Notes under the pieces: model-generated
Database searches by the model: none
Seen by the model: the letters and a program-made list of their open reading frames with translations, nothing else
What the model was told of the DNA's origin: nothing
From: Naegleria gruberi
Taxonomy: Eukaryota
Assembly (NCBI GenBank): GCA_000004985.1
Contig: GG738926.1
Length of the DNA stretch: 64,000 bases
Direction: 5' to 3' (one strand)
Program-made: the position numbers and the translations under genes
In this document: positions 10,684-56,625 of the stretch, in pieces
Layout: the number at the start of each line of letters is the position of its first letter
Position numbering within the stretch: position 1 is the stretch's first letter

Positions 10684-11661
10684 TTATTTGCAAGAAAAAC
10701 AAGAACATGCTGGTATTATTTGGGAAGAACTGACACAATGGTCAATTTTGACAAGCGTGGAGGTGCTGATTTGTTCTGGAAAGTCAAATTGCACATTTCT
10801 CTTTACCCTCTTGTAAACAGCATTGGATTTAATAAACTCTTTGATATTTTGTGAATTACTAGTATTCATGTGATATTCAATTTTGATAAATTCAATGGCT
10901 TTCAGGTAGTTCTCTGTTGCATTATCGTAAGATTTATGACTGGTGCAAAATTCTCCAAAGAGTGAGAAAACTTCTTGTAAGTGTCTATAACATTGTATCT
11001 TGGAGGTGGTTGTGTCAAAATTGTCATTACTCAAAGCTTGTTTAAAGTAATTTATCGATTTTTCAAAAACGTGAGACTTGGTCAAAAGGGTTTTGGTTTC
11101 ACTAGCATTTTCGGAATTGATGTAAACTGTTTCTATATATCCAAACTCATCAATGTTTAATTTACTAAATATTGTAAATAAACAAACTCCAATAGTATCA
11201 CAAGTATGTGATTTAAATGATGTCGAGTCTCCTATTTCTATTAAATATTTAAATAAATCTATTAAATGTGTATAATTCACATAAATATCTTCCGAATCCA
11301 TTAGTGCTTGATCAATAGATACTATTCCGAACTTGTGATAAATATTCATAGTCCTATGCATAAAATCAAAATAAACATTCTTAAATTCCAACAATCTATT
11401 TAACACCTTCAACATTAAAACAATATTTTGATAATGCTCGGCTTGTTCAAATAAATTTAAAAGCTCCACTTCATTACATTCACTAATATCACCCAGTAAA
11501 CGACTCGATTTTTTCAATGATTTTCTTGGTGGTACAACCTGAGCCTTCGGAGGAGATGCTGTAATTTCCTTCACCTCCTGTTCTTCATCATCAGTTTTCT
11601 TCTTCAATTGTTTAATGCTGATCGGAGAAAAACTGGTCGAGGCTTCTTCATTGTTGTTCAT
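10684..11661 (-). CDS. hypothetical protein (325 aa), no recognisable domain
   Basis: Complete ORF with ATG in aaaaaaaATG context. Convergent with the IP3R gene, stop codons 18 bp apart. Confidence 0.55.
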   Translation of the reverse strand: MNNNEEASTSFSPISIKQLKKKTDDEEQEVKEITASPPKAQVVPPRKSLKKSSRLLGDISECNEVELLNLFEQAEHYQNIVLMLKVLNRLLEFKNVYFDFMHRTMNIYHKFGIVSIDQALMDSEDIYVNYTHLIDLFKYLIEIGDSTSFKSHTCDTIGVCLFTIFSKLNIDEFGYIETVYINSENASETKTLLTKSHVFEKSINYFKQALSNDNFDTTTSKIQCYRHLQEVFSLFGEFCTSHKSYDNATENYLKAIEFIKIEYHMNTSNSQNIKEFIKSNAVYKRVKRNVQFDFPEQISTSTLVKIDHCVSSSQIIPACSCFSCK

Positions 11662-11690: not shown

Positions 11691-11700
11691 ATGGCGCCAT
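11691..11700. promoter_or_regulatory. palindrome ATGGCGCCAT (E2F-like core), 30 bp upstream of gene 10684..11661
   Basis: Same GGCGCC core motif. A further copy GAGCGCCAAAA sits at 19071..19083 in the 18905/19149 divergent promoter. Confidence 0.25.
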
Positions 11701-16790: not shown

Positions 16791-16973
16791 TTTTTTAAAA
16801 TTGCTTGTTCCGAAATTATATTCCTCTTCATACACATACTAGACTATTAGAAAATACAAAGAAATAAATTATAGAGAGGAACTAATTTTCAAAGCCTATG
16901 CTAAACATCAAGCCATTCTTCATCTTCACAAGCAAATCATCATTATATTTTTTAAAAATAAAAATTTAAAAAA

Positions 16974-17420: not shown

Positions 17421-18905
17421 CTATTCATCTTGTCTTATGCTAGCAATAGTCTTTTCAAATTCATCTTGCTCTCTTTGCTTTTTCTTTCTCATTTCGGTCT
17501 TGTACTTTCTTGCTCTGGATATATATTGTTCTCTACTGATTCTATCTGCTTGATGAGGGTTTGCAAAGATTCTGGCTATTGTCATTCCTGTTTGCAGTGG
17601 GATGTCTTTCATTAATTCATTACTCAACAGATTAATCTGTTTTGCATCATAGGTTACTCTTTCCTCTTGGCTCATAATCTTTTCCTTTTGTATTTTCTCT
17701 TCATTTAAAAAGTATGTCACTAAACCATCTCTAAGCTCAGCATCCCTGGCAGAAGAGATTTCCTCGTTTTGTTGAGATTGTGGTAAACTCTCTGCAGTTC
17801 CTCTGACTGTGTGTTGATCCTCTGGCAGTGATTTAAGGTATTCGTATTGTTCATAGCTCTTATTAAGATAGGATAAATCAACATTTCTTCTCCTTATTTC
17901 TCCTTTCAATCTTGCCATTTTCAATTTTTCCAAGTCAGGAAGAACTGGTTCAACGTAGTTCTTCCTTTCCTCCAGTGCATCTTTAACATACTCACTCGGT
18001 CTTAGCATATGTACGATATGTTTGTTATGAGAGTTGAGTGATGGATCAATGAATCTAAAGTCATTTTCTCTTCTTTCGTACGAGATGGATAACGTCTCCA
18101 GATCAATATTATTGTCTATATCATCAAATCCAAGTAATCTGAGAGTTGTCAAATACTCTCTTTTAATATGTGTCTCTCCTTGAGTTTTTCTCTTTGGAGC
18201 TCTTAAATAAAGTGGTCTCGTGTAAGGGTCATCAAAGTTGTTAGGTTCTGGTGAATGTGAATAAAGGAAATTTGTCCTCTGATTCAGAAAATGCTGATAG
18301 TCCTTGTCATTTTCGTCATCATCAAATGTAATGTACACTCTCTCGTTAAATTGAACTGATTTCCTTTCCTTTCCCCTGCTTTCGTCCGAGAGTGGTTCCT
18401 TAAGTATTGTTTTGTTACCTCTTTTTTGTTGTCCAAACTTTAGAGGAGAAAGTCTGTTCCCCCTTGAAGTTGGAGAATCAACAGAGTATTTGGAAGGTGA
18501 ATTATTAAATAAGGGACTTCTGGGATATTTTGGTGTAGCAACTTTTTTGAATACAGTCTTCTTTAGACCAGGATTCTTCTCGATGGTTATTGTTATGTTT
18601 TTCCTTGCATAAGGATTTCTATATACATATGTATCCTCATCCTTAGGAACATCAATTTTCAATTCCTTTGGAATTTTTGGTGGAGGTTGATGCTGCTCGG
18701 TAGAGGAATTTGTTGGATCAATGTTGACATTAAGAAACATCGACTTCCTTGGAGTCAATGTATCCCTTTTGGGTTCATCAAACATCCAATTTCTCTTCGT
18801 TGCTGTGCTGGAGTGGGCCAATCTCGGTGCAGTCTTTAAATCTGAATCTGCTGTTGAAGCCCTGGCCTGGCTTGTTTTTAAATATGGTCTTCTCTTACTG
18901 GTCAT
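17421..18905 (-). CDS. hypothetical basic low-complexity protein (494 aa)
   Basis: Complete ORF with real ATG, K/R/P/S-rich. No recognisable domain. Confidence 0.5.
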   Translation of the reverse strand: MTSKRRPYLKTSQARASTADSDLKTAPRLAHSSTATKRNWMFDEPKRDTLTPRKSMFLNVNIDPTNSSTEQHQPPPKIPKELKIDVPKDEDTYVYRNPYARKNITITIEKNPGLKKTVFKKVATPKYPRSPLFNNSPSKYSVDSPTSRGNRLSPLKFGQQKRGNKTILKEPLSDESRGKERKSVQFNERVYITFDDDENDKDYQHFLNQRTNFLYSHSPEPNNFDDPYTRPLYLRAPKRKTQGETHIKREYLTTLRLLGFDDIDNNIDLETLSISYERRENDFRFIDPSLNSHNKHIVHMLRPSEYVKDALEERKNYVEPVLPDLEKLKMARLKGEIRRRNVDLSYLNKSYEQYEYLKSLPEDQHTVRGTAESLPQSQQNEEISSARDAELRDGLVTYFLNEEKIQKEKIMSQEERVTYDAKQINLLSNELMKDIPLQTGMTIARIFANPHQADRISREQYISRARKYKTEMRKKKQREQDEFEKTIASIRQDE

Positions 18906-19148
18906 ATGGATTGTATCATTTCAATTTAATGATGAACGATAAAACCCGAAACAAAACTGGGGGTTTTAGAGTGATGAAGTTTTCATGCAGCACTTGTTGT
19001 TGCTTCTCAGAGTTCCAGCAACGGTAATTTTTTTAAGGTTTTCTTCAGTACATTTTTGTGATTTTGATTTTGAGCGCCAAAATTTTGTACAAAAAAAACT
19101 GTGATATTGCCTTAACGATTTTGGAGGCAAATTTATTGTTGTAGTATC

Positions 19149-20168
19149 ATGAGAAATAGGAAAGAAAATATGTTGAAGAGCAATACAATAACAACAACTC
19201 TTAATAATTTTAATAATTCTAAGAATACAACAAGGGAAGAGGAAAACCTTCAATTCAATTTTCCAACTTTTCCGAAGGGATTTGATGAGTCACAGCTATC
19301 ACTCTATCATTCTCTTTTATTAAAACAATGTACAAAATGTGATCATAGAAACGAGCATGCTAACAATACAACTAGTAAACCAGAGATTCCAACAAGAAGC
19401 ACAATACAAAATGATTGTATTAAAACAATCCCTAGAGTTAACCCTTTATCGAGTGGAGTGAGTTTCCGATCACTACCAAAAGCAACCTGTGATGATATCA
19501 TCAAAGTGTGTAACTTTTACGTAGAGAAGTGTGAGGGAAAATACAGTGAAAAAACTAGAGCCTACAGAATGATGGTGGAAATGGCGAATGAAATTATTAA
19601 ATTAACAAACATTATACAAAGGGATTTCGAAGTGGAATATAGCAAACAACGAGAGCAGAATGTTCACTTGAATAAGGTTTGTGAGGAGTGGAATAATTAT
19701 TTTGGAAAAACAGTAGATGATAAATATTCAAAACTGAGCCCACGAGATATTCGATTAATAATTGATAAACTGGAAATGGATGTGAAGAAATATGAGGATA
19801 CATTGAATGAGGAGCGATTAAGACACTACGAACAAGAACGAAAATTACACTTGATGATCAATGAGCATCACGAGGCCAGCAGGAAGAGCATTAGAAACAT
19901 GATGAAACAAACATCAGCACCAACTTTTCAAAAGAGTCCAACACCTCTCTATCAACCAAATTTCGAACAGACCTCCCTCGTTGAAACTCTTCTAGAAGAA
20001 AACAGACAATTGAAAAAACAAGTTCAAGAACTGACAGGCAGTACCTCCAAATATCGAACAAGCCACCACAACATGACCTCATCCTCCACCCTTCAAGATT
20101 CAATCAGCAGTAATAGTAGCTCTTCCCAAAGTACCTCCTCCATCAAATACAACACCCTATTCCAATAA
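19149..20168 (+). CDS. hypothetical coiled-coil protein (339 aa)
   Basis: Complete ORF with real ATG and a predicted coiled-coil centre (EERLRHYEQERKLHLMINEHHEASRK...). Confidence 0.5.
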   Translation: MRNRKENMLKSNTITTTLNNFNNSKNTTREEENLQFNFPTFPKGFDESQLSLYHSLLLKQCTKCDHRNEHANNTTSKPEIPTRSTIQNDCIKTIPRVNPLSSGVSFRSLPKATCDDIIKVCNFYVEKCEGKYSEKTRAYRMMVEMANEIIKLTNIIQRDFEVEYSKQREQNVHLNKVCEEWNNYFGKTVDDKYSKLSPRDIRLIIDKLEMDVKKYEDTLNEERLRHYEQERKLHLMINEHHEASRKSIRNMMKQTSAPTFQKSPTPLYQPNFEQTSLVETLLEENRQLKKQVQELTGSTSKYRTSHHNMTSSSTLQDSISSNSSSSQSTSSIKYNTLFQ

Positions 20169-22355: not shown

Positions 22356-22844
22356 TTAAAACATGAAAGTAGCAACAATGGCAGCAAGAGCAAACAAGAC
22401 CCAATTGACCTTTCCACTCAATGGAGCACTATTCCAACAATTAGTTTCAGGATAGGATGAACAATCTTTGAAATTAGTAGAAGATGTTCCACAAGCATCC
22501 TTAACCTTTTGACAATATGAACGACAAACAGTAATTGAACCAGAAGAGCTGGCATATTTAGCATTATTTACATCACAAACAGCACATGAATACATTTTCA
22601 TATACATGACACATGACTCTGAAGCTTTGAGAAGTGTGAGAGCACTAACAACGATAGAAGCTGCTGTATCTTGAATTACACTACAACATGATTTAGTTAC
22701 ACCTGTACAAGTGGTGCATGAGGAACATGGACTTGGATCAAAGGCAACAATTGCATTCTTGCAGGTTTGAGCTGTGACAGATGTGGTAGAGACACAGAGA
22801 ATGAGAGAAATGAGGAGAATTACAAGAATTGATTTGTTTAACAT
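22356..22844 (-). CDS. small secreted Cys-rich protein with C-terminal hydrophobic GPI-signal-like tail (ponticulin-like, tentative)
   Basis: Signal peptide MLNKSILVILLISLILCVSTTSVTA, about 20 Cys in 162 aa, C-terminal WVLFALAAIVATFMF. Confidence 0.5.
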   Translation of the reverse strand: MLNKSILVILLISLILCVSTTSVTAQTCKNAIVAFDPSPCSSCTTCTGVTKSCCSVIQDTAASIVVSALTLLKASESCVMYMKMYSCAVCDVNNAKYASSSGSITVCRSYCQKVKDACGTSSTNFKDCSSYPETNCWNSAPLSGKVNWVLFALAAIVATFMF

Positions 22845-23839
22845 TTTTTTGGGATTTGTTTTTATCGGTTGAGATGGCTCTCTAATTTATTCTCCATGAT
22901 GAATATTGGCACATGACATGTTTGGATAACATGAAGGGTTGAAAGGTAAAATGCTCATTGTAAATGTGAAGATCTTCTGAAAAGATGCGTAACGTTTGAT
23001 GGACAACATAGCGACGAGGTTGAGCTTTTTACTAGCTGATTAACTGTAGATGTTTGAGATGCACTTTCTAAACGAATGCCATGGACTGCATTGACTTGTT
23101 GTCCATTGTAAGATTGAGAGAATTTATTGTAATACTACAGTTAAGATTCGGATAAAGACCAGTGACTTACTGTAATGTTACAATCAAACTCTTCAATTTT
23201 GTGTACAATTTTGGAAATAATATAATGTGCTTTTCACTTTCATTTGTCATGTGGTCATCCTCATTCTTCTGTATGGTCTTTGACATTGAAATCTCAAACA
23301 TACTCATTATCTCCAGCTGTTAAAATCACTTTTTATCAAGTAATCCTAATTCAATACAGGAAACAACTGGTGTTCTGGTTAGATGTTTGGGGAAGACTCA
23401 GAAGTGGTCGCTCACAAGTGTTGGATATTGAATTAATTGTTTTATTACATTATAGATTCTAACCAAAAGTTACAAGAATTTTTTTCAAACAATTTTACAC
23501 ATGCTGTACCAATGATCACTTTTCTCAGCAATCACACTGCAATTAAAACACATCACTTTGAGGAGAAGCTGCAGGCTAGGGTCATGGAAGGTGATTGCTG
23601 TAAAAAACCCGGAAGTGATCTCTGCAGTTTTGTTTTTTGGCTATTTTTTCAAAATTTGATGTGGAATTCCACAGTGCATATGAAACATATCATGTGTGAA
23701 TTGAATGATGGATTTTATCTATCATGTTCTTACTCCAAACAATCTAAACCTGAAACTTTCCAATACTTAATGTGAAATGAATTGAGATTTAACAAAATTC
23801 GCGAATATTACTTGGTGCTAGTATACATTATAATGTAAA

Positions 23840-23913
23840 GCCGTCATAGCTCAGTTGGATAGAGCACAGGACTTCTAATCCTGGGGTCGTGGGTTCGAGC
23901 CCCATTGTCGGTA
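23840..23913 (+). tRNA. tRNA-Arg (anticodon UCU)
   Basis: Cloverleaf: acceptor GCCGTCA/TGTCGGT (one U-U mismatch at 5:68 and one G-U pair), D arm GCTC-AGTTGGATA-GAGC, anticodon stem CAGGA/TCCTG with loop CTTCTAA, T arm GTGGG-TTCGAGC-CCCAT, discriminator A. No intron. Confidence 0.85.
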
Positions 23914-24059
23914 TCTGATTTTATTCTTAAAGTAAACATTTTTGAATTTATTGCTAAGATGATTAGAGTGACCAATGGTTGTGTGAAAGATCAATTTTGT
24001 GTTAGCCAAATCAATATGATAATAGCTATTTAACCTATTTTAATTTTCAGTTTAAAGTA

Positions 24060-26744
24060 TTATTCATCACTACTATAGCTACTATCACTAGTATCACTAT
24101 CAGATGAGTAGCTCGATTCCAATGTTTCTATTTTTCTAATAACTCTCTGAGCTTGAATTTTAACAGAGATAGGGAACTGATCTAGATGTCTCAGAATAAA
24201 TAAAACATTTGTAAAATCATGATCTTCAACATCCAGTGAATCGGTATCAAACAAGTATTCTACAAACTCAAAAATACAGCCAAAGATGAGAAATTGCTTT
24301 TCCTTTGGAACTGTAGCTTTGAAGGGATAGACTAAAAGGTTTGGCAGAAAGTCATATAGACTAATTGCAAAGCTACGATTTCTTGTTAATAATAATATAG
24401 CAATCAATACCTCCTCGAATAGGTCAATGTTTGATAATTTCATCAATGCCAAATGAGCAGTTTCAAAATGTTCATCAGTTACATGAGAGAGTAATTGCTC
24501 TCCTCCATTTTGTACAATTTCATTGAGAATGATTGAACTCAAAGCCGAAGCGGAAAGCTGTAAACTCTGAACAATACTTGGAAATGATGGGATAATGAGT
24601 GATAAATGGGTGAGCAGGGCTTCTGATGGAATGGATGCCTCAATAAGTTCGTTAAACAAGTAATCATAGAGAAAATCCTTCTTTTCTTCTGATTGAATTT
24701 CATTCACATCAAATGGACAATGAATCAATAATCCCTTCTCGTAAAGATTTTCAATTAGGACAGCTAATGATCCAATATCAGCTAGTGTATTGCTCATAGC
24801 AGTATCTACTTTCTTTTTTGAAATTACAATTCTAATGAACTTGGTAAGGAATGGATAAAAATCAAACTGTTCAAAAACTCTCGACAATGCGTTTAGATCT
24901 GTTTCTTTGATTATTTTGGCCATGGCTTTGGTGGTTGATAATATTAATTCGTCATTTAGCTTAAACTCATCTTTCTCAAATATTTCCTCAGTCTTTTTCT
25001 TAATAACCAAAAGAATCTTTTCAAATTTAATATTATCATTAATAAATCCAAATAATGTCTCAATCATGTCAAAGCATTCTATAACATTTTCTTTGTGTGT
25101 TTCTAATTTTTCTTCATCACTTAAATCTTGCATATCTTTCAAGTATTCGATTGTGTCGCTCATTATTATGGTTTCAAACAGATTGCTGATAAGCTGTCTA
25201 AATCTCTCCAACATTGAACCGTTCATATTATTGACATCAAAGCAGCAACTAACATTTTCCAGCATTTCACAATATTCCTTGATATTTGTGATATTGGCTT
25301 GGCCAGCATTGATTATTGTTCCCAGTAAATCATCAGAGCACTTCTCTTTTTCGAGGAAGTAACGGGCAATAGTCCTATTAGCAGAACTTCTGATGATTCT
25401 ATTGCTAGAGAATAAAGAATTTTTCCATATTTCTAAAATGCAAGAAATCATCTGTTTAAACTCTTCTGGTATTTCTTCCAACTTGTCCACATCAAGGCAT
25501 ACAGCAGGTAATGAAATGATATTAGCTGACTCTCTCAAAAGTCCTTCGTATTGTGTTTTAATTTCGTTTCTCTTCAAGTTTTCAATTATTAAATCTTTAA
25601 ATTGTAGAAGTACTGAAACACGTAAGAGAATATCATGCCTAATTATCAGTTCATCCTGGTCTTCGTACTCCTTTTCCATCAATACAAATCCAAGAGTGTT
25701 CATTATTTTGCCTTTAACAATGTACACATGATCTCCAAAGTTTTCAGATTGTTCGTTCGTAATATTCGAAGCTTCCATATCCTTAACTTCTTCGTAATCT
25801 TTCTTCATTAAGGAAAACAAATGACTCCACCTTGTGTCGTCAGTATTTGCTAGTTTTGCAAGAGTTAACATTTTCGTTGCATCTACTTTTAAATCCTCTG
25901 TATCATCCTCCAAGCTTAGCCCAGTAAGTTTATAAATTAATTCAATGTAAATTGGAATACAGTTTAAAATTTTTGATCTTAATTCATCCAATTCATCGAT
26001 TTCAATTGAAAAGATATCTTTAAGGAATGGAGGCCAAAACGAAATATTAGAACCCATTAAAGGTTGGTTCTCTTGTTTCCAATTTTGGTCATTGTTTTCC
26101 TTCAAATACTTGACCTTCTTTTCCTTCATATATTTCAACGTAGTCAGCATTACAAAACATGAATTGTAATATTTTTCCATATCCGAAATAGGTAAATATC
26201 GATAACTGAAAATGTCAACTTGTAATTTAGTATATAAATGTAAAACAATTTTCTGCCAAGCCTCCAAAATTCCAATTCCAGTTTCGAATTGTCTCACCTG
26301 TCCATTATATGCCTCCTTTTTCAATTTCTTGGCACAATCAAACACTTCCTTCAATACATTCTCTTCAACATAATAAAGAAATGGAACAAAAGCCTCTGAT
26401 CTAATTCTTGTCATTGTCTCACGTGAAACTATAAAGTAATGATAAATCATCAGCATGGTCTTGATACAAATTACATCTTCGTCATCATGATCCCGCTCAT
26501 CAAATACAAATAATTTAGAACCAGTATAATATGATAAATCATCATCAAAATCAAAATGACTTGACAATATTTTGTTAGTTTCTTTATGACGGTCTTTCCA
26601 GAAAATGGAAACTAGTGAATAATTAGTTCGGACAATCATCTTTACTTCATCAAAATTTCTACGTAAATCATTCAAAGAGTCAAGTTTTCTACATTCCGAC
26701 ATGTAGTCCTCTTGAATGAACGGAAAAATTCCATCTTTAATCAT
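24060..26744 (-). CDS. large helical hypothetical protein (894 aa)
   Basis: Complete ORF with real ATG in aaaaaaaaATG context. C-terminal acidic Ser/Asp tail. No recognisable catalytic motif. Confidence 0.55.
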   Translation of the reverse strand: MIKDGIFPFIQEDYMSECRKLDSLNDLRRNFDEVKMIVRTNYSLVSIFWKDRHKETNKILSSHFDFDDDLSYYTGSKLFVFDERDHDDEDVICIKTMLMIYHYFIVSRETMTRIRSEAFVPFLYYVEENVLKEVFDCAKKLKKEAYNGQVRQFETGIGILEAWQKIVLHLYTKLQVDIFSYRYLPISDMEKYYNSCFVMLTTLKYMKEKKVKYLKENNDQNWKQENQPLMGSNISFWPPFLKDIFSIEIDELDELRSKILNCIPIYIELIYKLTGLSLEDDTEDLKVDATKMLTLAKLANTDDTRWSHLFSLMKKDYEEVKDMEASNITNEQSENFGDHVYIVKGKIMNTLGFVLMEKEYEDQDELIIRHDILLRVSVLLQFKDLIIENLKRNEIKTQYEGLLRESANIISLPAVCLDVDKLEEIPEEFKQMISCILEIWKNSLFSSNRIIRSSANRTIARYFLEKEKCSDDLLGTIINAGQANITNIKEYCEMLENVSCCFDVNNMNGSMLERFRQLISNLFETIIMSDTIEYLKDMQDLSDEEKLETHKENVIECFDMIETLFGFINDNIKFEKILLVIKKKTEEIFEKDEFKLNDELILSTTKAMAKIIKETDLNALSRVFEQFDFYPFLTKFIRIVISKKKVDTAMSNTLADIGSLAVLIENLYEKGLLIHCPFDVNEIQSEEKKDFLYDYLFNELIEASIPSEALLTHLSLIIPSFPSIVQSLQLSASALSSIILNEIVQNGGEQLLSHVTDEHFETAHLALMKLSNIDLFEEVLIAILLLTRNRSFAISLYDFLPNLLVYPFKATVPKEKQFLIFGCIFEFVEYLFDTDSLDVEDHDFTNVLFILRHLDQFPISVKIQAQRVIRKIETLESSYSSDSDTSDSSYSSDE

Positions 26745-26819
26745 TTTTTTTTAATTATGACAAAAACTTGATCAAAACTTTCCCAATGGCATGCTATTCT
26801 TTTAATATGAATTAAAAAA

Positions 26820-27083
26820 ATGGCGCAAACTACTGCCAATGAGTTACTGGAGGAAATCATGCATTTCATGAAGCAGCAGTTGGAGAAGGCTGTTACAAAT
26901 TCTGATGTTTCGATCCTTAACAAAATCTTACCAAGTGATCTGTGTGCTTATCTGGTGCCGGATAAAAGCAAAAAAAATAAGAAAGAAAAACTAGCTGATA
27001 TTTGCCTGCAACTAGGAATCAAAGAAGATGGAGATGGTGCATATGAATATTATGAAGAAGATGAAGATGGAGATGGTGCATAG
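26820..27083 (+). CDS. small acidic hypothetical protein (87 aa) with duplicated EDGDGA C-terminus
   Basis: ATG in aaaaaaATG context, only 75 bp from the divergent start of the 24060..26744 gene. Confidence 0.35.
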   Translation: MAQTTANELLEEIMHFMKQQLEKAVTNSDVSILNKILPSDLCAYLVPDKSKKNKKEKLADICLQLGIKEDGDGAYEYYEEDEDGDGA

Positions 27084-27164
27084 AAGATAGAATGATACTG
27101 ATCCTTCACTCGTATAACTGATGAATTTTCATCGATTCTTAAACTGGATGAATCTCCATATTTT

Positions 27165-27659
27165 GTGGGAGTCCTAATTGATTTTAATTCGTCTAGATTA
27201 GAATGTCAGAATTTGATATCAGACGAATATTTTCCTCTCTGCACACACAAACCTCAAGATCATGATGAATTCTTTGAGAATGAAACTATTCCAACCATTT
27301 CATTCACAAAAGCTCATGATATTTATGCACTTTCGTTTGTAATGACACAACTTGTTACAATTCTATTTTTTGTAATGAGCCACCTTTCAAATATTAATCA
27401 AGCCATCACTCAATTCTTGATTGATTATAGAAATCCAGTTGATAAGGAATGGATATTAAAACAGTGGGAATTTTTATGTAAGGAATCAAATTATATCTTT
27501 AAGAATGCTCAACATTTGGAAATATTTTCACAAATTTCCAAATTTGTTTTCAAATCCTTCGTCTTTTTCCACAAGTTCATATTACGAAAAAGAGTTGCAA
27601 TCCATCAAGCATTCTTTATTAACATAACTCCCATACTATTCGTAAAGTTAAATATTTAA
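27165..27659 (+). other. ORF without ATG start (GTG in track), hydrophobic. Possible exon or spurious.
   Basis: Listed in the ORF track but no in-frame ATG near the 5' end. Confidence 0.15.
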
Positions 27660-27732
27660 GAAAAAGGTTTAATACCTGTGGATTTGGAATTGGTGTGTCA
27701 AATATCTTGGGAGTTTGAAAAATCCACAAAAA

Positions 27733-28763
27733 ATGTCGAAACATGTTGAAGGTGTGATATTTGCCCTGCTCCTCCCCACGCTTCTCGTCATATTGCAACT
27801 ATGTGAAAACTCTATACAATCAATTGCCATTGGAGGTGGTAAAATTTCTGGAAATGTTGAATTTCCGTTTATGGTTTCCATTCAATATAGATTTGATTCG
27901 GGAGAATTTAATCACTTTTGTGGAGGATCTATTATTTCTAAGCAACACATTCTAACAGCAGGTAATTTGAAGAATTTATTAAAATTAATTGGAATTTGTA
28001 AATGCTAGCTCATTGTTTCTATTCGAAAGGAGAGCTAATTTCTATAGAAAGATTGAGGATTAGATATGGAAGTTCCGATTTATCTTCTAATGATTTATTG
28101 GAAATTATCATTTCTGATCTGTTTATTCATCCAAATTTCACATTAGAAACTAACCGAAATGATATTGCCATTGTGAAAACAATTAATGAATTGGAAATCA
28201 ACAACTCAACCACTCGTATAGCATTCTTAGAATCAGAAACTATACCTAATGGATTTAAATTGATTGCAGTTGGATGGGGATTTTACAATGAACAACAAAC
28301 TTCATTTTCAAACAAATTAAGAAGAGCAAGAATTCCACTCACTTCATTGTTGAATTGTAATGGAATGGGATTGAGAGCTAATTCTCCAAATCAATTATGT
28401 GCTGGCGATGGAGGTGGTGCAGATACTTGTAAGTTGAATTGTTGAATTGAGTTTCGAATATAGGATTGAGGTATTGGAGATAGTGGAGGACCATTATTTA
28501 GATTTGAAGGACTTTTTGATTTTGCATTGGTTGGAATTATCAGTTATGGAAGAGATGTTAAATGTGGCTCAATGAATAGTTTGACAGTTTACACAAATAT
28601 TTCACATTACAATCCCTTTATTGTAAATGTTATTGGAAATGTAACATTTTCTCCCTTTGATCCAAATGCCAATTACAATAGAGCACTAATCAATCACTCA
28701 ATTATTTTACAACTTTCTTATTGGATTATTGGTTTATGCCTTTTATTTCAAACCATTACCTGA
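27733..28763 (+). CDS. secreted trypsin-like (S1 family) serine protease, 3 exons: 27733..27961, 28009..28428, 28471..28763
   Basis: Three ORF fragments in the track. Splicing GTAATT..TAG (47 nt) restores the His motif ILTAAHC, and GTAAGT..GAG (42 nt) restores DTCIGDSGGPLF. Catalytic Asp is in NDIAIV. Signal peptide from the real ATG at 27733 (track start 27715 is TTG). Confidence 0.8.
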
Positions 28764-29046
28764 ATTGACATGAGATACTTTCCTTTAATGAAATTTGAAT
28801 ATTTCCCATTAATTGGACTTGGGACGTAAAGAAGTAGTTCATTAGAAAACCAAATTGAAAATAAGATTTAGATCAAAAGAGTGAAATGAATTTAAACTTC
28901 TACTGTTGAACTCTTTTAGAAATATCAGTTTCTTCAATTGATTCTCTCTTTCTCTTCTCAGTTTCTTTGAACTGTTCTATTCTCACAATGTTTTCCCACG
29001 AATGAATGCGTATTAGAAATATACATTTGCTGGAAGATCAAAAAAA

Positions 29047-29514
29047 ATGGCAGAAAGCAGTTGGCACGATTTACCTCAAGTTGTTCAATTAGAAATATTC
29101 ACCTTTTTATCAATTAAACATCTCGGAAAGGTTCTTTCTTTGAGCAAGACGATTCAACAACAATTGGACGAAAGTGAATACTTTTGGCAGAAATTATCAG
29201 TCAATTATGCTCGAGTTCTGGATGATCCAAACATTATGGAGCAAACCAAAGCATTAGCAAATGATCAAACTGAAAAGAATCTTCATGAAAAGTATTCGAA
29301 TCATTTCGAATTATTGATGAAAGCAAAAGATAAGAAAAAAGTAGAGTTACAAACCAAGGTAATGGTTGAGAAGAGAAGAAAAAAATTAGAATTGTTGAGA
29401 AGTAGTTTGATGTCAGCACTTTTGACTCGTGCTTCTGGCTCAGAAAAGAAAGAAGAAAAGAAAGAAGAAAATTTCGATTTGGAAAAGGAAATTGAAAAAT
29501 TGCAGTTTGATTGA
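29047..29514 (+). CDS. F-box-like domain protein (155 aa)
   Basis: LPQVVQLEIFTFLSIKHLGKVLSLSKTIQQQL fits the F-box pattern (LP..I...IF..L....L). Charged coiled-coil C-terminus. Confidence 0.5.
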   Translation: MAESSWHDLPQVVQLEIFTFLSIKHLGKVLSLSKTIQQQLDESEYFWQKLSVNYARVLDDPNIMEQTKALANDQTEKNLHEKYSNHFELLMKAKDKKKVELQTKVMVEKRRKKLELLRSSLMSALLTRASGSEKKEEKKEENFDLEKEIEKLQFD

Positions 29515-29662
29515 AATGAGCTCGAGTGTTATTCGAATGATTGGAACTGACTTTCTAATAAAATTTTACAAGGTCACTCAATCATTTTGTATGCGATTTT
29601 TAAAAATAAAGTCTTCATGCTGAGCTATTGTCACAATTCATAACAATAAAAAAAACTGTCAA

Positions 29663-30019
29663 ATGCCAAAAGGTTCCATTAAACTCAAAATTAGTGGTGG
29701 TAGAAGAAGTGGTTACAATAGCAGTAGCTCACACAGATCCGAGGACTCCCAAACTATTTTCACTAATTTTTCAACTTCAAAGAGACAATTTGAGTGTTGT
29801 GAGAATGAATGTCCAGTTCAAGGTGAAGTTGAACCCAAAGTTCAATATGGAAGCATGCTTGAAAGACAAGCACAACTATTTACACAATCCATGCACACAG
29901 GTTTATATGGATATTGTACCAAGAAGGGAATGGATCAGAATGCAATTGTTCCAGCTATTAAGATGGGGAGTCAATATTTGGAAGGAATAAGCAAGAAAAT
30001 TACAAAATTATTCCAATAA
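29663..30019 (+). CDS. hypothetical small protein (118 aa)
   Basis: ATG-initiated ORF. The overlapping ORF 29628..29990 starts with TTG and is less likely. Confidence 0.3.
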   Translation: MPKGSIKLKISGGRRSGYNSSSSHRSEDSQTIFTNFSTSKRQFECCENECPVQGEVEPKVQYGSMLERQAQLFTQSMHTGLYGYCTKKGMDQNAIVPAIKMGSQYLEGISKKITKLFQ

Positions 30020-30857
30020 TAAATGAGTAAAAATCTTTCTCAATCATCTTACAGAAACTTGTATTAGAAATTGACCATTAATAATTTAATAATAGAATAC
30101 AAATTTATAACAGAAACTGATTATTGTAACTTTAATAGATATTTTAGTTGGATGGACCAAAAACAGCTGTTGTAAAATTTTATCACATGATGGAAAGTCC
30201 GAAAATGGGCTGTGAAAAAAAACCATTGTAAACAACATAGACGGTTGACAGAATGACAACTTATTTAAAAAAAAATTAAAAAAAAAGAAAATGTATCACC
30301 ACTTCTTGACTCAGCACTTTGAAACTTGTAGAACTACACTTCTTCCCATCAACAAACCTGTGTTCAATTATTGGTACCAATACCTATTTGACTATACACC
30401 AATATACCAATAATTACAGTGTTGAGTAGAATTGTTCCTTCTCACACCATTACCCAAGTTGTTGGTGCACCATTAAAGCTGTAATAGAGATGAATATTGG
30501 CTCCCACACTTGAAAGCAATTTTTAAATTGCACAAAGTTTGTGAGATTTGCACACCACCAACAGTGATATGAGCACAATCACGATTGATGATTTGACTTG
30601 AAAAAATGGAGATTCTATAAATGGTTGAATTGGGCGAAAATTAAGAAATTGTAATCAGTAACACTATAAGTTGAGAAAATCACGTCCCTGGATGGTGATT
30701 GCGTGAGTGACATTAAAATAATCGATGATTACTTCAGTGATGTCACAGCCCCATTAAGCTTTCATTTACTAAATTGATTGTGGAATGGAAACTCAATGGC
30801 ACCTTGTGGATTTTAAATAGATTGTTTGTTTAAACTAAAGCTTAAAAAAACAACAGA

Positions 30858-31302
30858 AATGAAAATTGCAGAGATTTTAAATTATATCCAACATTCACAC
30901 AGGTATAATCATGATGATATTAATTATTTGTGCGGGTACTTTGCCATTGTGCAAGACGGAAAGAGGGGAATAGATATTTCTGCAACCAATATTCGTGCGT
31001 TTCTCGACACACTTCTCAAGACCCCAAAAGGTGAAGTTACAAAACTATTTTGGTACGGAAACTATGGCGGCCCAGGTACCAACTCAACACTGCTTCCAAT
31101 AGATGCTCTTGATGCAGCATGTCTATTTCATGATAAATACTTGCCAAAAGATAGGTTTCAAGACCTTACAAAATTTATTAGACGTCATTTCGGTGCACAA
31201 AATTGCTCAACAGACGCAAATTGGTATATCGATAGAATCAATGGTTTATTTTTTAGTTACGTAGAACCTGTTTATATGAATTGGTTTGTGTCAAAGAGCT
31301 AA
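30858..31302 (+). CDS. phospholipase A2-like protein with parvovirus-type motif set (YxGPG...P.D..DAA..HDxxY)
   Basis: WYGNYGGPGTNSTLLPIDALDAACLFHDKYL matches the Ca-loop and HD catalytic dyad of group XIII / parvoviral-VP1u-like PLA2. Real ATG at 30858 (track start 30826 is TTG). Confidence 0.45.
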
Positions 31303-35939: not shown

Positions 35940-37412
35940 TTACAGTATAATATTGTTTTTCTTTGCGTAGAGTAAGACTGGTTTTGGATCTAAAGTTTCG
36001 TCTGATGTGTTTGAAAGCATATTTTCGAGAATAAACTTGGATAACATTTTTTCTTCTCTTTGTTTGGCTTTCTCCATCATTATGGATTCTTTTCTCACTT
36101 GTTTCATTTCTTCCAATCTCTTTTGTTCCTTTTCAGTTGCTTGCAATTTTTGATAATCTTGCACACGTCTGGCTCTTTCTTGAGAATTCTTCTTGTCAAT
36201 AAAGTCTTCAATCGCCATTTGCTTGTATCTTTCTCTTGCTTGTTGAGCCATAATCTTGTCAACTTCCTTATCCTTTTCAGAGACTAGCTTTTTGAATTGC
36301 ATTTGTTGTTTCCTGCTGTTATCCACGGTTTCCATAAATGCTTTCTTTCGTTGTTCTTGTTTCTCTTCTTCTTCCTTTTGTTTTTCTTCCATTTCTTGTT
36401 CTTGCTTGACATATCTTTCCTTTTCATTGGCTTTCATTTCCTCGAGCATTTTAGACTGTTTATCGATCAATTTTTGTCTGGATCTCAGTTTTTCTCTCAT
36501 ACGTTCCTCTTCTCTTCTCTTTTGCTCAGTTTCCTTTTCTTCCTTTTCTTGGATAAATTCCAAGTTTTTGAGTTTCTGCTCTTTTTCGTATTCAGCTTGT
36601 CTCCTCTTCTTTTCCTCGATTTCTTCTAATTCTTTTTTGTATTGAGCTGTTGCTCCTAATTGTTGTTCAGCCTTTTTCTTCTTTTTCTCCTCCTCTTCTT
36701 TGGAAAGATTAATCAGATGCAATCTCATTTGCTCCTTTTCTTTCTCCAACTCTTCAATTCGTTTCATGTGTCTTTGCTTGATACTATCAATTTGTGTGTC
36801 TTGATCTTTCCTGATTTCTTTTGCCTTTTCCTTAGCTTTTTGGGAGAGAGCTAGTTTTTCTTGAGCTGTTTTTTGGAGTTGTTCTCTTTGAACTTCCATC
36901 CATGATTCAACTTCTTGTTTTTCCATTTCTTCCATTTGCTTTTTAATTTCAATTTGGCGTTCTCTTTCCCTCAAAACCTCACCCAACAGAACCTTTCCTT
37001 GAACTGCCTTGACACGATCATCTTCAAGCATTCTCATTTTGTTTAATTTCTCTATTTGTTTTCTTTTGATTTCAGCTTGGTAGAGCGCTTCTTCTCTTTC
37101 AAGCCTTTGTTGTTCTTCTTCCTTAATTCTATTACGTTCTTCTCTTTCTTGCTCTTGCTTTACTCGAATGGCGTCAATTGTGTTTCCCCAATTTTGTGCT
37201 CTTCTATCGGACTGTTCTTTAAGTCTCTTCTTTCTCTCATTCTTATCTTCCTCCATATCTCTTTCATCTTTTAATTGGTTCATTATTGTTGAGAATTCTC
37301 CTTTGGTTAGAACAGCATATGTTCCTCTCTTTGGATTATTATCGTAATTTTGATGCCACAATCCCTTTGAGGCATTGTGTTGTTGCTTTGATCCTTGATT
37401 AAATGATATCAT
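35940..37412 (-). CDS. highly charged E/K/R-rich coiled-coil protein (TPH/trichohyalin-like repeats), 490 aa
   Basis: Continuous ORF. Dense ERK heptads. Its antisense strand yields the spurious poly-S/F ORFs seen in the track. Confidence 0.6.
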   Translation of the reverse strand: MISFNQGSKQQHNASKGLWHQNYDNNPKRGTYAVLTKGEFSTIMNQLKDERDMEEDKNERKKRLKEQSDRRAQNWGNTIDAIRVKQEQEREERNRIKEEEQQRLEREEALYQAEIKRKQIEKLNKMRMLEDDRVKAVQGKVLLGEVLRERERQIEIKKQMEEMEKQEVESWMEVQREQLQKTAQEKLALSQKAKEKAKEIRKDQDTQIDSIKQRHMKRIEELEKEKEQMRLHLINLSKEEEEKKKKKAEQQLGATAQYKKELEEIEEKKRRQAEYEKEQKLKNLEFIQEKEEKETEQKRREEERMREKLRSRQKLIDKQSKMLEEMKANEKERYVKQEQEMEEKQKEEEEKQEQRKKAFMETVDNSRKQQMQFKKLVSEKDKEVDKIMAQQARERYKQMAIEDFIDKKNSQERARRVQDYQKLQATEKEQKRLEEMKQVRKESIMMEKAKQREEKMLSKFILENMLSNTSDETLDPKPVLLYAKKNNIIL

Positions 37413-37545
37413 CCTCCTCCAATAATTATTATTTTTATTTAAAAACTACTGATAAATTGTTTGATGCTTTTGTTGTTGTTGCTATTGATGCAATGATGAT
37501 ATTTTTTACAGAGATGTTTTATTGCAACGAACAGATTAAGGTACT

Positions 37546-37558
37546 TTTTGGCGCCAAA
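37546..37558. promoter_or_regulatory. palindromic E2F-like site TTTTGGCGCCAAA
   Basis: Perfect palindrome matching the overlapping E2F consensus TTTSGCGC/GCGCSAAA, about 135 bp upstream of the minus-strand coiled-coil gene start (37412). Confidence 0.35.
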
Positions 37559-37945
37559 CGAACAACAACACCTTTTGAAAGGCAACCTGAAATGTAACCG
37601 TCAAAAATTATATTAAAAGATTAAATTGCTTAATGTTTTCTTTGAAAAGTTTACGTGGTAGATTATCTTCCTATCTTTCTCATTTTGGAATTGATGAAAC
37701 AATGAAAAAATAGTGCAATATAGGAAAAGTTGGAAAAGTCCAATATTTCATCGAAAAATAAATGGCGCGCCCGCCTTAATCACAAAACAAATTTCATAAA
37801 ATTGTAAATCAAACGTTCCTACCCGAATGTTGAAAAAGTACACTATTTTACCAAATATTTCAATGAAAGATGACATTTCTTGTTGTACTCCAACTTGTAT
37901 TCACACTACAAATTGAGCGCCAACAAGTATTTCATAATAGTATAA

Positions 37946-37957
37946 ATTTGGCGCCAT
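37946..37957. promoter_or_regulatory. E2F-like site TTTGGCGCCATT (with related GAGCGCCAAC at 37914 and TGGCGCGCCCGCC at 37763) in a divergent promoter
   Basis: Three GGCGCC-core elements within 200 bp between divergent genes 35940..37412 (-) and 38163..38822 (+). Such GC islands are unusual in the AT-rich intergenic context. Confidence 0.3.
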
Positions 37958-38162
37958 TTTTTTACATTCACTACAAACACTTACTCGAAAAAAAAGAATA
38001 CAAATCTCGATTTGACAACTCATACTGTCAAGTTGCATAGCTGCGAATCACTACCACATATTATCTAAATCCCTAAATCAATCTAGTTGTTATCTAGTTG
38101 TTGTTTATATAAATTTATAAATCGCCTCATCCTCTAACATTGTACAATTTCACACTTTCAAA

Positions 38163-38822
38163 ATGATGATCAAATCCTCCCTAGTTACTCCAATGCCTTC
38201 CATTCATACAACAACAAATTCAATGAATCAACCATACCATTCTCATTCCTCTTCCCTTCATCATTCGACTACCACCACTAATAATAATAACCATCATCAC
38301 AATACACAATTTTTGAAATCAAACCAGAGCTCAATTGATGCCATGTTCAGAAAATTGATGGAAGCCAAGTTTTCATCAACACTTTCGGATATTGAATCAA
38401 ACTTTAACCAATTCGATAATAATTTAAGTTCAACATTGAAAATGATTGAATCAGATTTTAAGAGCCTGTTCGAAACAAAAAAGAGAGGAAGAATTATTTC
38501 ATCTGACACCTCTTCGACAATGTGTGATCAAGACGATTATTCAACTGCCTCAGGAAGCAAGAAGAGAAAGAGAAGCAACTTTTCAAAGAAAGATAAAGAG
38601 CTCCTTATTGAATGGCTTCAAAATCACTCCGACTATCCTTACCCATCAGATGAAGAAAAAGACGAATTACTTGAAAGAGTCTCAATGACCAAAGACCAAT
38701 TAGAAACATGGTTTGTCAACAATAGAAAGAGATTACTCCCAACAGCAACAGCTAGAAAAACACCAGCCATGTTACAATGTGAAGAATTCAACACTAAATT
38801 AGAAAAGAAACTCGTTGTATAA
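38163..38822 (+). CDS. TALE-class homeobox transcription factor
   Basis: KKRKRSNFSKKDKELLIEWLQNHSDYPYPSDEEKDELLERVSMTKDQLETWFVNNRKRL: three-amino-acid loop extension (PYP) and the WFxNxR recognition helix. Confidence 0.85.
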   Translation: MMIKSSLVTPMPSIHTTTNSMNQPYHSHSSSLHHSTTTTNNNNHHHNTQFLKSNQSSIDAMFRKLMEAKFSSTLSDIESNFNQFDNNLSSTLKMIESDFKSLFETKKRGRIISSDTSSTMCDQDDYSTASGSKKRKRSNFSKKDKELLIEWLQNHSDYPYPSDEEKDELLERVSMTKDQLETWFVNNRKRLLPTATARKTPAMLQCEEFNTKLEKKLVV

Positions 38823-56105: not shown

Positions 56106-56625
56106 TTTTTTTAATGTCAAAAAGAAATGAGGTTCAATAATGGAAAGTATGGTTGCTGATTGGTTTCGTTTTGGTAATTTTGTAGTTTATTCAAAGTCTT
56201 ACAGTTCCACAGCTTCACAAATATGTTTCTTTACAAAAGGTTAGTTTTATTCGAAACCATTCTTATTGTAAACTAACAAAAACCGTAGTTGATTACACAA
56301 ATCATAAACTACACATTGCTAATCACAAATCAACAAATAAACTGTCGTTTGACGATTAATACAATGTACGAAGAGATCTACAAGTTTAAATGACACGATA
56401 TTCTATTGGAAACTTAGTTTTCGAAACTTTAACACACTATTCCAAAATGTTGAAATTTACTAATAGAACACAATTTCTTTAATCATCAAGGTAACTTTCG
56501 TATAAAACCAGCTCACATTAGCTAAGCTTTCGAATAACATTGTTAACAAAAAATAACGTAAAACATGCAAGGAAACAAATTGATTATTTGCCTCTCTGTT
56601 GTGTTTATTCCTCTTTTTCATCCAA

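What the first reader, a model, noticed from the sequence alone, without database searches (positions are those of the whole stretch)
37540..37960. GC-rich palindromic E2F-like elements (TTTGGCGCCAAA family) clustered in AT-rich divergent promoters
Perfect or near-perfect GGCGCC-core palindromes occur at 37546 (TTTTGGCGCCAAA), 37763 (ATGGCGCGCCCGCC), 37914 (GAGCGCCAAC) and 37946 (TTTGGCGCCATTT), between the divergently transcribed charged coiled-coil gene and the TALE homeobox gene. Further copies lie at 11691 (ATGGCGCCAT) and 19071 (GAGCGCCAAAA) in two other promoters. They match the classic overlapping E2F site of the DHFR promoter type. This suggests that the coiled-coil gene, gene 10684..11661 and gene 19149..20168 are cell-cycle regulated.
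Basis: partly seen in the sequence, partly recalled or inferred. Interest (0 to 1): 0.5.

Follow-up and report, generated by a model that had tools for sequence, protein, structure and literature searches.

The report
Conserved E2F-type sites in Naegleria promoter
A cluster of rare GC-rich palindromes that match the binding site of the cell-cycle factor E2F sits, conserved across related amoebae, between a flagellar-axoneme gene and a homeobox gene of Naegleria gruberi. This hints that the E2F pathway may help switch on flagellum building, rather than simply marking S-phase genes.

Summary
The window is Naegleria gruberi (33% GC, CpG-depleted). The reported motifs are real, with coordinates within 1 nt, and are far above chance. 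The half-site TGGCGC occurs 11 times against 2.0 expected. GCGCCA and GGCGCC rank 2nd and 3rd of 2080 hexamers for over-representation in non-coding DNA. Four sites lie in one 750-bp divergent promoter.

The "charged coiled-coil gene" is the orthologue of CFAP210/FAP210, a microtubule inner protein of the flagellar axoneme. Its divergent pairing with the TALE homeobox gene is kept in two other Naegleria-like contigs. E2F-type sites sit next to both start codons there, including TTCCCGCC-type variants. Upstream of the homeobox gene they are also found in a third contig and in Willaertia.

The site before gene 19149-20168 is conserved in N. lovaniensis as TTGGCGCCAA. The site before gene 10684-11661 is not conserved. 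N. gruberi encodes E2F, DP, DEL and RB, with intact RRxYD DNA-contact motifs.

E2F-family binding is therefore likely. The inference of S-phase regulation is unproven and fits poorly: Naegleria inner-protein genes are reported to be induced only during amoeba-to-flagellate differentiation. The most likely reading is a differentiation-coupled use of E2F sites. This rests on a single flagellar gene and no expression or binding data.

The parts
37546..37558 (.). E2F-type site D, TTTTGGCGCCAAA. The inner 12 bp are a perfect palindrome. It lies 134-146 bp upstream of the CFAP210 start codon.
   Evidence: E2F-type sites occupy the equivalent CFAP210-proximal position in L002 (GGGCGCCAAATTTT at 40 bp, TTGGCGGGAAC at 97 bp) and L001 (GGGCGGGGAAC at 52 bp).
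37762..37775 (.). Site E, ATGGCGCGCCCGCC. It contains a 12-nt run of G/C only (37764-37775), in the middle of the intergenic region.
   Evidence: This is the only run of 7 or more G/C in non-coding DNA of the window. It shares a 28-nt direct repeat with site G.
37915..37924 (-). Site F, a half-site: GTTGGCGCTC on the minus strand. It lies ~245 bp upstream of the homeobox ATG.
   Evidence: L001 has AATGAGCGCCAAG 154 bp upstream of its homeobox ATG.
37947..37959 (.). Site G, TTTGGCGCCATTT. It lies ~210 bp upstream of the homeobox ATG.
   Evidence: It aligns column for column with AAAATTGGCGCCACTTT in L004, whose homeobox protein is 84% identical.
35940..37412 (-). CFAP210/FAP210 orthologue: a TPH-domain protein of the axonemal doublet (microtubule inner protein).
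   Evidence: Pfam PF13868, E 1.3e-12. phmmer against PDB gives full-length matches to Tetrahymena CFAP210 (8g2z, E 2.7e-31) and Chlamydomonas FAP210 (6u42, E 5.7e-20). This exact ORF is not in the public protein collection.
38163..38822 (+). TALE (KN-type) homeobox gene, EFC36711 / NAEGRDRAFT_59932.
   Evidence: Pfam PF05920, E 6e-16. Exact match to the N. gruberi protein. Orthologues P0009-P0012.
19072..19082 (-). Site B, TTTTGGCGCTC on the minus strand. It lies 67-77 bp upstream of the ATG of gene 19149-20168 and ~170 bp from the ATG of gene 17421-18905.
   Evidence: The N. lovaniensis orthologous divergent promoter has CACTTGGCGCCAATATG 33 bp from the orthologous ATG. Willaertia has no such site.
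19149..20168 (+). Gene 'c2' (EFC36704): an uncharacterised coiled-coil protein with a widely conserved domain (aa ~95-255). It is the probable target of site B.
   Evidence: No Pfam or PDB identity. AF2 model confident for aa 110-255, with no structural match.
17421..18905 (-). Gene 'c1' (EFC36742), found only in Heterolobosea. It is the divergent partner of c2.
   Evidence: It lies on a different contig from c2 in Willaertia.
11691..11700 (.). Site A, ATGGCGCCAT, a perfect 10-bp palindrome. It lies 30 bp upstream of the ATG of gene 10684-11661.
   Evidence: It is not conserved: the orthologous upstream regions of N. lovaniensis and Willaertia have no site.
10684..11661 (-). Gene 'b': a 325-aa helical protein found only in Heterolobosea. 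Function unknown.
   Evidence: The single-sequence AF2 model is unusable (pLDDT 43).
38012..38031 (.). Inverted TGACA pair, TTGACAACTCATACTGTCAA, ~135-150 bp upstream of the homeobox ATG. It is conserved in L004 and may be a TALE-type autoregulatory site.
   Evidence: The MEIS3 consensus TGACAGGTGTCA is quoted in PMC5449588. The function is inferred only.

Best explanation
The palindromes are functional, evolutionarily conserved E2F-family binding sites (TTTSGCGC / WTGGCGCCAW). They lie in the shared 750-bp promoter of the axonemal gene CFAP210 and a TALE homeobox gene of Naegleria gruberi, with a second conserved site before the uncharacterised gene 19149-20168.

They are most likely bound by the Naegleria E2F-DP heterodimer or by the two-domain atypical E2F (DEL), with RB acting on E2F. 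These sites would place the two genes under the RB-E2F switch.

CFAP210 belongs to a gene class that Naegleria is reported to transcribe only while turning from a dividing amoeba into a non-dividing flagellate. The likely output is therefore differentiation-coupled: either repression in cycling amoebae that is relieved on cell-cycle exit, or activation by an E2F complex in post-mitotic cells as in animal multiciliated cells. Classical G1/S induction fits less well.

Shown: motif presence, enrichment, promoter location, conservation, identity of the flanking genes, and presence of the factors. Inferred: which protein binds, and the direction and timing of regulation.
For: - Motif match: TTTGGCGCCAAA equals the E2F1 HT-SELEX consensus.
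- Enrichment: TGGCGC 11 found against 2.0 expected. GCGCCA and GGCGCC are the 2nd and 3rd most over-represented of 2080 hexamers in non-coding DNA.
- Promoter bias: 6 of 8 loci lie in the 22% of the window that is non-coding. Sites are 30-250 bp from start codons.
- Conservation at CFAP210/homeobox: the divergent pair is kept in L001 (CFAP210 70% identical) and L002 (65%). E2F-type sites lie next to both ATGs in both contigs.
- E2F-like degeneracy: the CFAP210-proximal position carries TTTGGCGCCAAA in N. gruberi, TTTGGCGCCC plus TTCCCGCCAA in L002, and TTCCCCGCCC in L001. This is the S/S degeneracy typical of E2F sites, not what a strict GGCGCC reader would give.
- Homeobox side: the site aligns exactly in L004. 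It is present as GGTGGCGCATAAAA in Willaertia, where the upstream neighbour is a different gene.
- Site B is conserved as TTGGCGCCAA in N. lovaniensis. It is the only promoter GCGC in 21 kb there.
- Factors: NgruE2F (KRRIYDITNVLEG), NgruDP (RRRVYDALNVL), NgruDEL (two DNA-binding domains) and NgruRB appear in the supplement of PMC4862756. E2F is confirmed as N. gruberi protein P0013 with PF02319 and PF16421, with orthologues in N. lovaniensis, N. fowleri, Willaertia and Acrasis.
- Differentiation link: the gene is CFAP210. All Naegleria inner-protein homologues are reported as up-regulated exclusively in differentiation (PMC10802493).
- RFX, FOXJ1 and XAP5 are absent from Naegleria, and its cilia-gene regulators are unknown (PMC12183034).
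- E2F4/5 with MCIDAS drives the centriole and cilia programme in animal multiciliated cells.
- Giardia E2F1 is an encystation-induced activator (PMC7866390).
Against: - There are no binding or expression data for these genes.
- Only one identified flagellar gene carries the sites. No other flagellar promoter of Naegleria could be fetched.
- Whether CFAP210 itself was among the inner-protein homologues profiled is unknown. The ORF is not in the public protein set.
- The other site-bearing genes (b, c1, c2) have no known function.
- c2 has a homologue in Acrasis kona. To my knowledge Acrasis has no known flagellate stage.
- Sites are sparse in sampled relatives, about one per 15-20 kb. Three of the four TGGCGC loci found in the two Willaertia loci L006 and L008 fall inside annotated genes.
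- Site A is not conserved.
- Site B is not found in Willaertia.
Confidence: 0.5

Rival explanations
1. Classical reading: these are G1/S E2F sites, and the flanking genes (CFAP210, homeobox, b, c2) are periodically expressed in the amoeba cell cycle.
For: - The same motif match, factor presence and conservation as the best explanation.
- E2F sites in animals and plants mostly mark G1/S genes (established knowledge).
- The functions of b, c1, c2 and the homeobox gene are unknown, so they could be cell-cycle genes.
- In Willaertia, c2 is paired with an SMC_N-domain gene.
Against: - CFAP210 is an axonemal inner protein.
- Naegleria amoebae have no microtubules in interphase, and inner-protein homologues are reported as induced only in differentiation.
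- No replication or S-phase gene lies next to any site in ~200 kb examined.
- The E2F gene of N. lovaniensis has no site upstream.
Confidence: 0.2
2. The palindromes are bound by a different, unidentified Naegleria factor that reads WTGGCGCCAW. The resemblance to E2F sites is coincidental.
For: - The commonest form is a GGCGCC-core palindrome with an A/T-TGG flank.
- No binding data exist.
- The canonical autoregulatory E2F site is missing in N. lovaniensis.
- A repeated TATTTCAT...ATAAAT flank accompanies two of the sites, hinting at a composite element.
Against: - Orthologous positions carry non-palindromic E2F variants: TTCCCGCCAA and TTTGGCGCCC in L002, and GGCGCGCC in N. gruberi. These fit E2F degeneracy.
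- E2F and DP keep the RRxYD DNA-contact motif, so a protein with this specificity is certainly present.
Confidence: 0.2
3. The motifs are a chance or compositional feature with no function, for example leftover CpG-rich fragments.
For: - The numbers are small: 8 loci.
- One locus is a start codon and one is coding.
- Site A is not conserved.
Against: - None of 100 shuffles reached the observed count.
- The hexamers rank at the top in non-coding DNA.
- There are four sites within 410 bp.
- Sites are conserved in four other taxa at the same promoter, in otherwise unalignable AT-rich DNA, and in N. lovaniensis at site B.
Confidence: 0.03

Closest known systems
Overlapping or palindromic E2F sites of animal G1/S promoters (DHFR type, TTTCGCGCCAAA; E2F1 HT-SELEX, TTTGGCGCCAAA)
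   Same: - The sequence is identical or near-identical.
- The form is palindromic.
- The sites are promoter-proximal.
- The cognate E2F, DP and RB proteins are encoded.
   Different: - The organism is a heterolobosean amoeboflagellate.
- The one flanking gene of known function is axonemal, not a replication gene.
- Cell-cycle periodicity is not shown.
E2F4/5-DP1-Multicilin (MCIDAS/GEMC1) programme of vertebrate multiciliated cells
   Same: E2F-family sites or factors are used in post-mitotic cells to launch massive de novo basal-body and cilium assembly. This is the same cell-biological event as Naegleria differentiation (PMC12183034).
   Different: - Geminin-family co-activators were not looked for here.
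- Animal targets are mainly centriole-biogenesis genes plus FOXJ1 and RFX, which Naegleria lacks.
- Only one axonemal gene is linked here, and only by sequence.
Giardia lamblia E2F1 in encystation
   Same: An E2F-family factor in an excavate protist activates differentiation genes rather than S-phase genes (PMC7866390).
   Different: - The differentiation programme is different (cyst wall).
- According to the literature, Giardia E2F1 binds AT-rich sites rather than GGCGCC palindromes. This is my recollection and was not checked here.
RFX X-box (GTNRCC-N0-3-RGYAAC) of animal cilia genes
   Same: It is a palindromic promoter-proximal element upstream of ciliary genes.
   Different: - The sequence does not match.
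- RFX is absent from Naegleria.

Membership tests
E2F binding site (TTTSGCGC family) | The sequence matches the TTTSGCGC / TTTGGCGCCAAA consensus. | tested here: met
   - 37547-37558 is exactly TTTGGCGCCAAA.
- 37947 and 19072(-) match TTTGGCGC.
- The others are WTGGCGC variants.
- The consensus is quoted in PMC5449588.
E2F binding site (TTTSGCGC family) | The genome encodes E2F and DP winged-helix proteins with the RRxYD DNA-contact motif, plus the RB partner. | tested here: met
   - NgruE2F, NgruDP, NgruDEL and NgruRB sequences are in the PMC4862756 supplement.
- P0013 is an N. gruberi protein with PF02319 and PF16421.
E2F binding site (TTTSGCGC family) | Promoter-proximal location, more frequent than chance. 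| tested here: met
   Sites lie 30-250 bp upstream of start codons.
E2F binding site (TTTSGCGC family) | Conserved in orthologous promoters. | tested here: met
   - Met for the CFAP210/homeobox promoter: L001, L002 and L004, and Willaertia L003 on the homeobox side.
- Met for c2 in N. lovaniensis.
- Not met for gene b.
- Not met for c2 in Willaertia.
E2F binding site (TTTSGCGC family) | Physical binding by E2F-DP (EMSA, ChIP, DAP-seq). | not testable with these tools
   No binding data are available.
G1/S (cell-cycle) E2F regulon | Target genes are replication or cell-cycle genes, or show G1/S periodic expression. E2F autoregulation is common. | tested here: not met
   - The identified target is CFAP210, an axonemal protein.
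- No replication gene is adjacent to any site in ~200 kb.
- There is no site upstream of the N. lovaniensis E2F gene.
- Expression periodicity could not be tested.
CFAP210/FAP210 (TPH-domain microtubule inner protein) | Full-length similarity to structurally defined CFAP210, and a TPH domain. | tested here: met
   - PF13868, E 1.3e-12.
- 8g2z CFAP210: E 2.7e-31 over residues 5-480.
- 6u42 FAP210: E 5.7e-20.
RFX X-box | GTNRCC-N0-3-RGYAAC palindrome, and an RFX factor present. | tested here: not met
   The sequences do not fit. RFX is reported absent from Naegleria (PMC12183034).

The most novel reading that the evidence does not exclude
In Naegleria, which lacks RFX, FOXJ1 and XAP5, the RB-E2F/DP (or DEL) module is a direct regulator of the de novo flagellar and basal-body programme. 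Under this reading, the E2F4/5-Multicilin logic of animal multiciliated cells reflects an ancient link between cell-cycle exit, E2F and ciliogenesis that was already present in early eukaryotes. The conserved TALE homeobox gene that shares the promoter would be a co-regulated differentiation factor.
Probability: 0.25. Interest if true: 0.8.

Novelty: new member of a known kind. Interest (0 to 1): 0.55.

Why it matters
Which transcription factors drive the rapid, synchronous induction of hundreds of cilia genes in protists that lack RFX and FOXJ1 is an acknowledged open question (PMC12183034). Naegleria is the classic system for de novo basal-body assembly.

A conserved, easily scanned cis-element next to an axonemal gene gives a concrete hypothesis. 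It can be tested on existing data: a genome-wide motif scan set against the published differentiation and mitosis RNA-seq.

If the motif instead marks replication genes, the finding simply documents that the canonical E2F code is conserved in Heterolobosea. That would be useful but expected.

Tried and rejected
Searches and look-ups that failed or gave nothing:
- A homology search with CFAP210 returned only three distant hits, because its low-complexity words swamped the candidate list. As a result, CFAP210 promoters of N. fowleri, N. lovaniensis and Willaertia could not be fetched.
- N. gruberi genes are not on record in the contig index. I could not extend the window or fetch the N. gruberi E2F, replication or flagellar promoters.
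- Scans of JGI metagenomes with the CFAP210 and homeobox alignments found nothing.
- The differentiation microarray paper and the final RNA-seq paper are not held, and the preprint has no held supplements. No per-gene expression could be read.
- Gene identifiers are mentioned in no held paper.
- No held paper links an E2F motif to Naegleria promoters.

Attempts to identify the unknown genes:
- Genes b, c1, c2 and the 894-aa gene gave no Pfam or PDB sequence hits.
- Gene b: the single-sequence AF2 model was unusable.
- Gene c2: the profile hit only generic coiled coils. A good AF2 model had no Foldseek match in PDB. The afdb50 library was unavailable.

Tests with inconclusive or negative results:
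- E2F autoregulation: N. lovaniensis has no site. Willaertia has TTTGGCGC inside the annotated 5' end of the gene, which is ambiguous.
- The 26821 TGGCGC locus was rejected as a regulatory site, because it is the ATG-GCG start of a small ORF.
- A repeat or transposon origin of the sites was rejected: the flanks are not shared beyond one local 28-nt repeat.
- TATTTCAW is not enriched across the window.

Full report
**Origin of the window.** Five ORFs of the window are identical to annotated proteins of Naegleria gruberi NEG-M, on a 174,974-bp scaffold. These include GlnRS EFC36745 and the TALE homeobox protein EFC36711. The DNA is 31-39% GC throughout. It is CpG-depleted, with an observed/expected ratio of 0.46. 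Simple ORFs cover about 77% of the window.

**The observation.**
- Four of the six start positions are off by one base.
- TTTGGCGCCAAA (37547-37558) and ATGGCGCCAT (11691-11700) are perfect palindromes.
- GAGCGCCAAC and GAGCGCCAAAA are half-sites.
- What all six share is WTGGCGC.

**Statistics.**
- GGCGCC: 3 found, 0.47 expected.
- TTTSGCGC: 4 found, 0.48 expected.
- TGGCGC: 11 hits at 8 loci, 2.02 expected, and no shuffle of 100 reached 11.
- The tetranucleotide GCGC occurs at only 15 positions in 64 kb, and 8 of those are TGGCGC.
- I ranked all 2080 hexamers for over-representation in the ~14.3 kb of non-coding DNA under a second-order background. GCGCCA (9 found, 0.49 expected) and GGCGCC (6 found, 0.13 expected) came 2nd and 3rd. 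They were beaten only by TCATCA, which looks like unannotated coding repeats.
- Six of the 8 loci are non-coding (p 0.002).
- Four loci fall within 410 bp of a single 750-bp intergenic region.
- Two further TGGCGC loci exist. 26821 is the ATG-GCG start of an 87-codon ORF. 54945 lies in an ankyrin ORF. I do not count either as a regulatory site.

**The flanking genes.**
- The "charged coiled-coil gene" (35940-37412, minus strand) carries a TPH domain. It matches, over its full length, the structurally defined ciliary microtubule inner proteins CFAP210 of Tetrahymena (E 2.7e-31) and FAP210 of Chlamydomonas (E 5.7e-20). It is therefore an axonemal gene.
- The partner gene (38163-38822, plus strand) is a KN-type TALE homeobox gene.
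- The other site-bearing genes have no Pfam or PDB-sequence identity. These are b (10684-11661), c1 (17421-18905) and c2 (19149-20168).
- An exhaustive HMMER search shows that b and c1 are confined to Heterolobosea. c2 carries a widely distributed but uncharacterised domain. An AlphaFold model of c2 is confident for residues 110-255 but has no structural neighbour in PDB.
- The remaining genes of the window lack the motif in their promoters. They are IP3R-like, RabGAP, DnaJ, GlnRS, SDR, a BCS1-like AAA protein, formin, V-ATPase D and others.

**Conservation at the CFAP210/homeobox promoter.** A search with the homeobox protein found four orthologues. Their contigs were fetched.
- In L001 and L002 the divergent CFAP210/homeobox arrangement is kept, with CFAP210 70% and 65% identical.
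- L001 has only two GCGC positions in 6.3 kb. One is AATGAGCGCCAAG, 154 bp upstream of the homeobox ATG. A GGGCGGGGAAC lies 52 bp from the CFAP210 ATG.
- In L002, four of the five GCGC positions of the contig are in the intergenic region. GGGCGCCAAATTTT lies 40 bp and TTGGCGGGAAC 97 bp from the CFAP210 ATG. ACGCGCCAG, GGTGGCGCCAATTG and AAGGCGCCAAG lie 85-147 bp from the homeobox ATG.
- In L004, the closest relative, AAAATTGGCGCCACTTT aligns column for column with N. gruberi site G.
- In Willaertia magna the homeobox gene has a different upstream neighbour. It still has GGTGGCGCATAAAA 202 bp upstream.
- The CFAP210-proximal position is thus occupied in three taxa by different members of the E2F site family, including TTCCCGCC-type sites. 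This argues for a reader with E2F-like degeneracy.

**Conservation at the other two promoters.** A syntenic N. lovaniensis locus (L007) was obtained.
- The c2/c1 divergent promoter there holds the perfect palindrome TTGGCGCCAA, 33 bp from the c2 ATG. It is the only promoter GCGC in 21 kb.
- The upstream region of gene b has no site in N. lovaniensis or in Willaertia.
- Willaertia c2 has only TAGCGCTA.

**The factors.**
- The supplement of Medina et al. 2016 (PMC4862756) lists N. gruberi E2F, DP, DEL (E2F7/8-like, with two DNA-binding domains) and RB. The RRxYD DNA-contact motif is intact in E2F, in DP and in the first DEL domain.
- I confirmed E2F as an N. gruberi protein with the E2F_TDP and CC-MB domains. 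Orthologues exist in N. lovaniensis, N. fowleri, Willaertia and Acrasis.
- From my own knowledge, the C-terminus of NgruE2F (…FEMESGEGVSDLFL) resembles the RB-binding motif of human E2F1.

**What the sites do.** Binding by an E2F-family protein is the best-supported reading. The biological programme is less clear.
- The classical expectation (G1/S genes) is not supported by anything I could test. No replication gene lies next to a site in the ~200 kb examined. The N. lovaniensis E2F gene has no upstream site.
- The one target with a known function is axonemal. A preprint reports that Naegleria microtubule-inner-protein homologues are all up-regulated exclusively during differentiation and not in mitosis (PMC10802493).
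- A 2025 review states that RFX, FOXJ1 and XAP5 are absent from Naegleria and that other factors must regulate its cilia genes. The same review summarises the E2F4/5-MCIDAS programme of multiciliated cells (PMC12183034).
- An E2F-family factor also drives a differentiation programme in Giardia (PMC7866390).
- I therefore favour a differentiation-coupled use of E2F sites. This could be repression in cycling amoebae that is relieved on cell-cycle exit, or activation in post-mitotic cells. It rests on one gene and on class-level expression data.

**Limits.**
- I could not retrieve further N. gruberi promoters.
- I could not retrieve CFAP210 loci from other species.
- I could not read per-gene expression tables.
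- Metagenome scans added nothing.
- The pooled promoter bias in relatives is 9 of 13 TGGCGC loci in the 16% of sequence that is non-coding. It is partly circular, because several loci were chosen as orthologues of site-bearing promoters.

**Verdict.** The sites are conserved E2F-type elements. The inference that the flanking genes are cell-cycle (S-phase) regulated is unproven and is unlikely for CFAP210. Documenting the canonical E2F code in Heterolobosea is a new member of a known kind. A possible E2F-ciliogenesis link in a protist is the interesting, still speculative, extension.

Noticed in passing
window 38012-38031: An inverted pair of TGACA motifs (TTGACAACTCATACTGTCAA) lies ~135-150 bp upstream of the TALE homeobox ATG. 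It sits in a block conserved with L004 (TTTGACAtCTgATACTGTCAAGTT). TGACA is the core of MEIS/KNOX-type TALE sites, so this may be an autoregulatory element.
   Followed up: partly
window 35940-37412 (-): The CFAP210 ORF is not in the 15-billion-protein collection as an exact sequence, and a homology search did not return any N. gruberi model for it. The gene may be unannotated or mis-modelled in the public N. gruberi annotation.
   Followed up: partly
window 26820-27083 (+): An unlisted 87-codon ORF (MAQTTANELLEEIMHF…, with an acidic C-terminus) starts at the TGGCGC locus AAAAAAATGGCGC. It is divergent from the 894-aa gene 24060-26744. This makes that locus ambiguous as a regulatory site.
   Followed up: partly
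window 37744-37771 and 37928-37955: A 28-nt direct repeat (71% identity) links sites E and G: TATTTCAT…ATAAAT-(T)TGGCGC. Three TATTTCAW copies fall in this 750-bp region, although the octamer is not enriched across the window. It may be a composite element.
   Followed up: partly
window 19149-20168 (+); alignment A2: Gene c2 belongs to a widespread but unnamed protein family with the motif SGxSxRxLP…CxHYVxKCSGKY…AARY…EWN..F…TPK. There are about 65 hits at E<=1e-3. The AF2 model shows a confident helical hairpin at aa 110-255. There is no Pfam, PDB-sequence or PDB-fold match.
   Followed up: partly
L007 (N. lovaniensis PYSW02000011.1, 409630-430655) versus window 2332-32827: Microsynteny holds between N. 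gruberi and N. lovaniensis (IP3R, b, c1, c2, RabGAP, DnaJ), with some changes. N. lovaniensis has an acyl-carrier-protein gene and an IRE1-like kinase/RNase gene inserted. It lacks the N. gruberi genes at 11875-16835 and 22356-31302 in this stretch.
   Followed up: no
L007 11027-11040: A GGCGCC-core sequence (TTCGGCGCCCGAG) lies in the 64-bp gap between the convergent 3' ends of gene b and the IP3R gene in N. lovaniensis. This is not a promoter position.
   Followed up: no
window 56599-57444 (+): An ORF has a strong alginate lyase domain (PF08787, E 1.2e-33) in this amoeba. It is a candidate for horizontal gene transfer from bacteria.
   Followed up: no
L006 15211: In Willaertia, TTTGCCGC (which fits TTTSSCGC) lies in a 111-bp divergent promoter, 45 bp upstream of an MGMT-type DNA repair gene (PF01035).
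   Followed up: no
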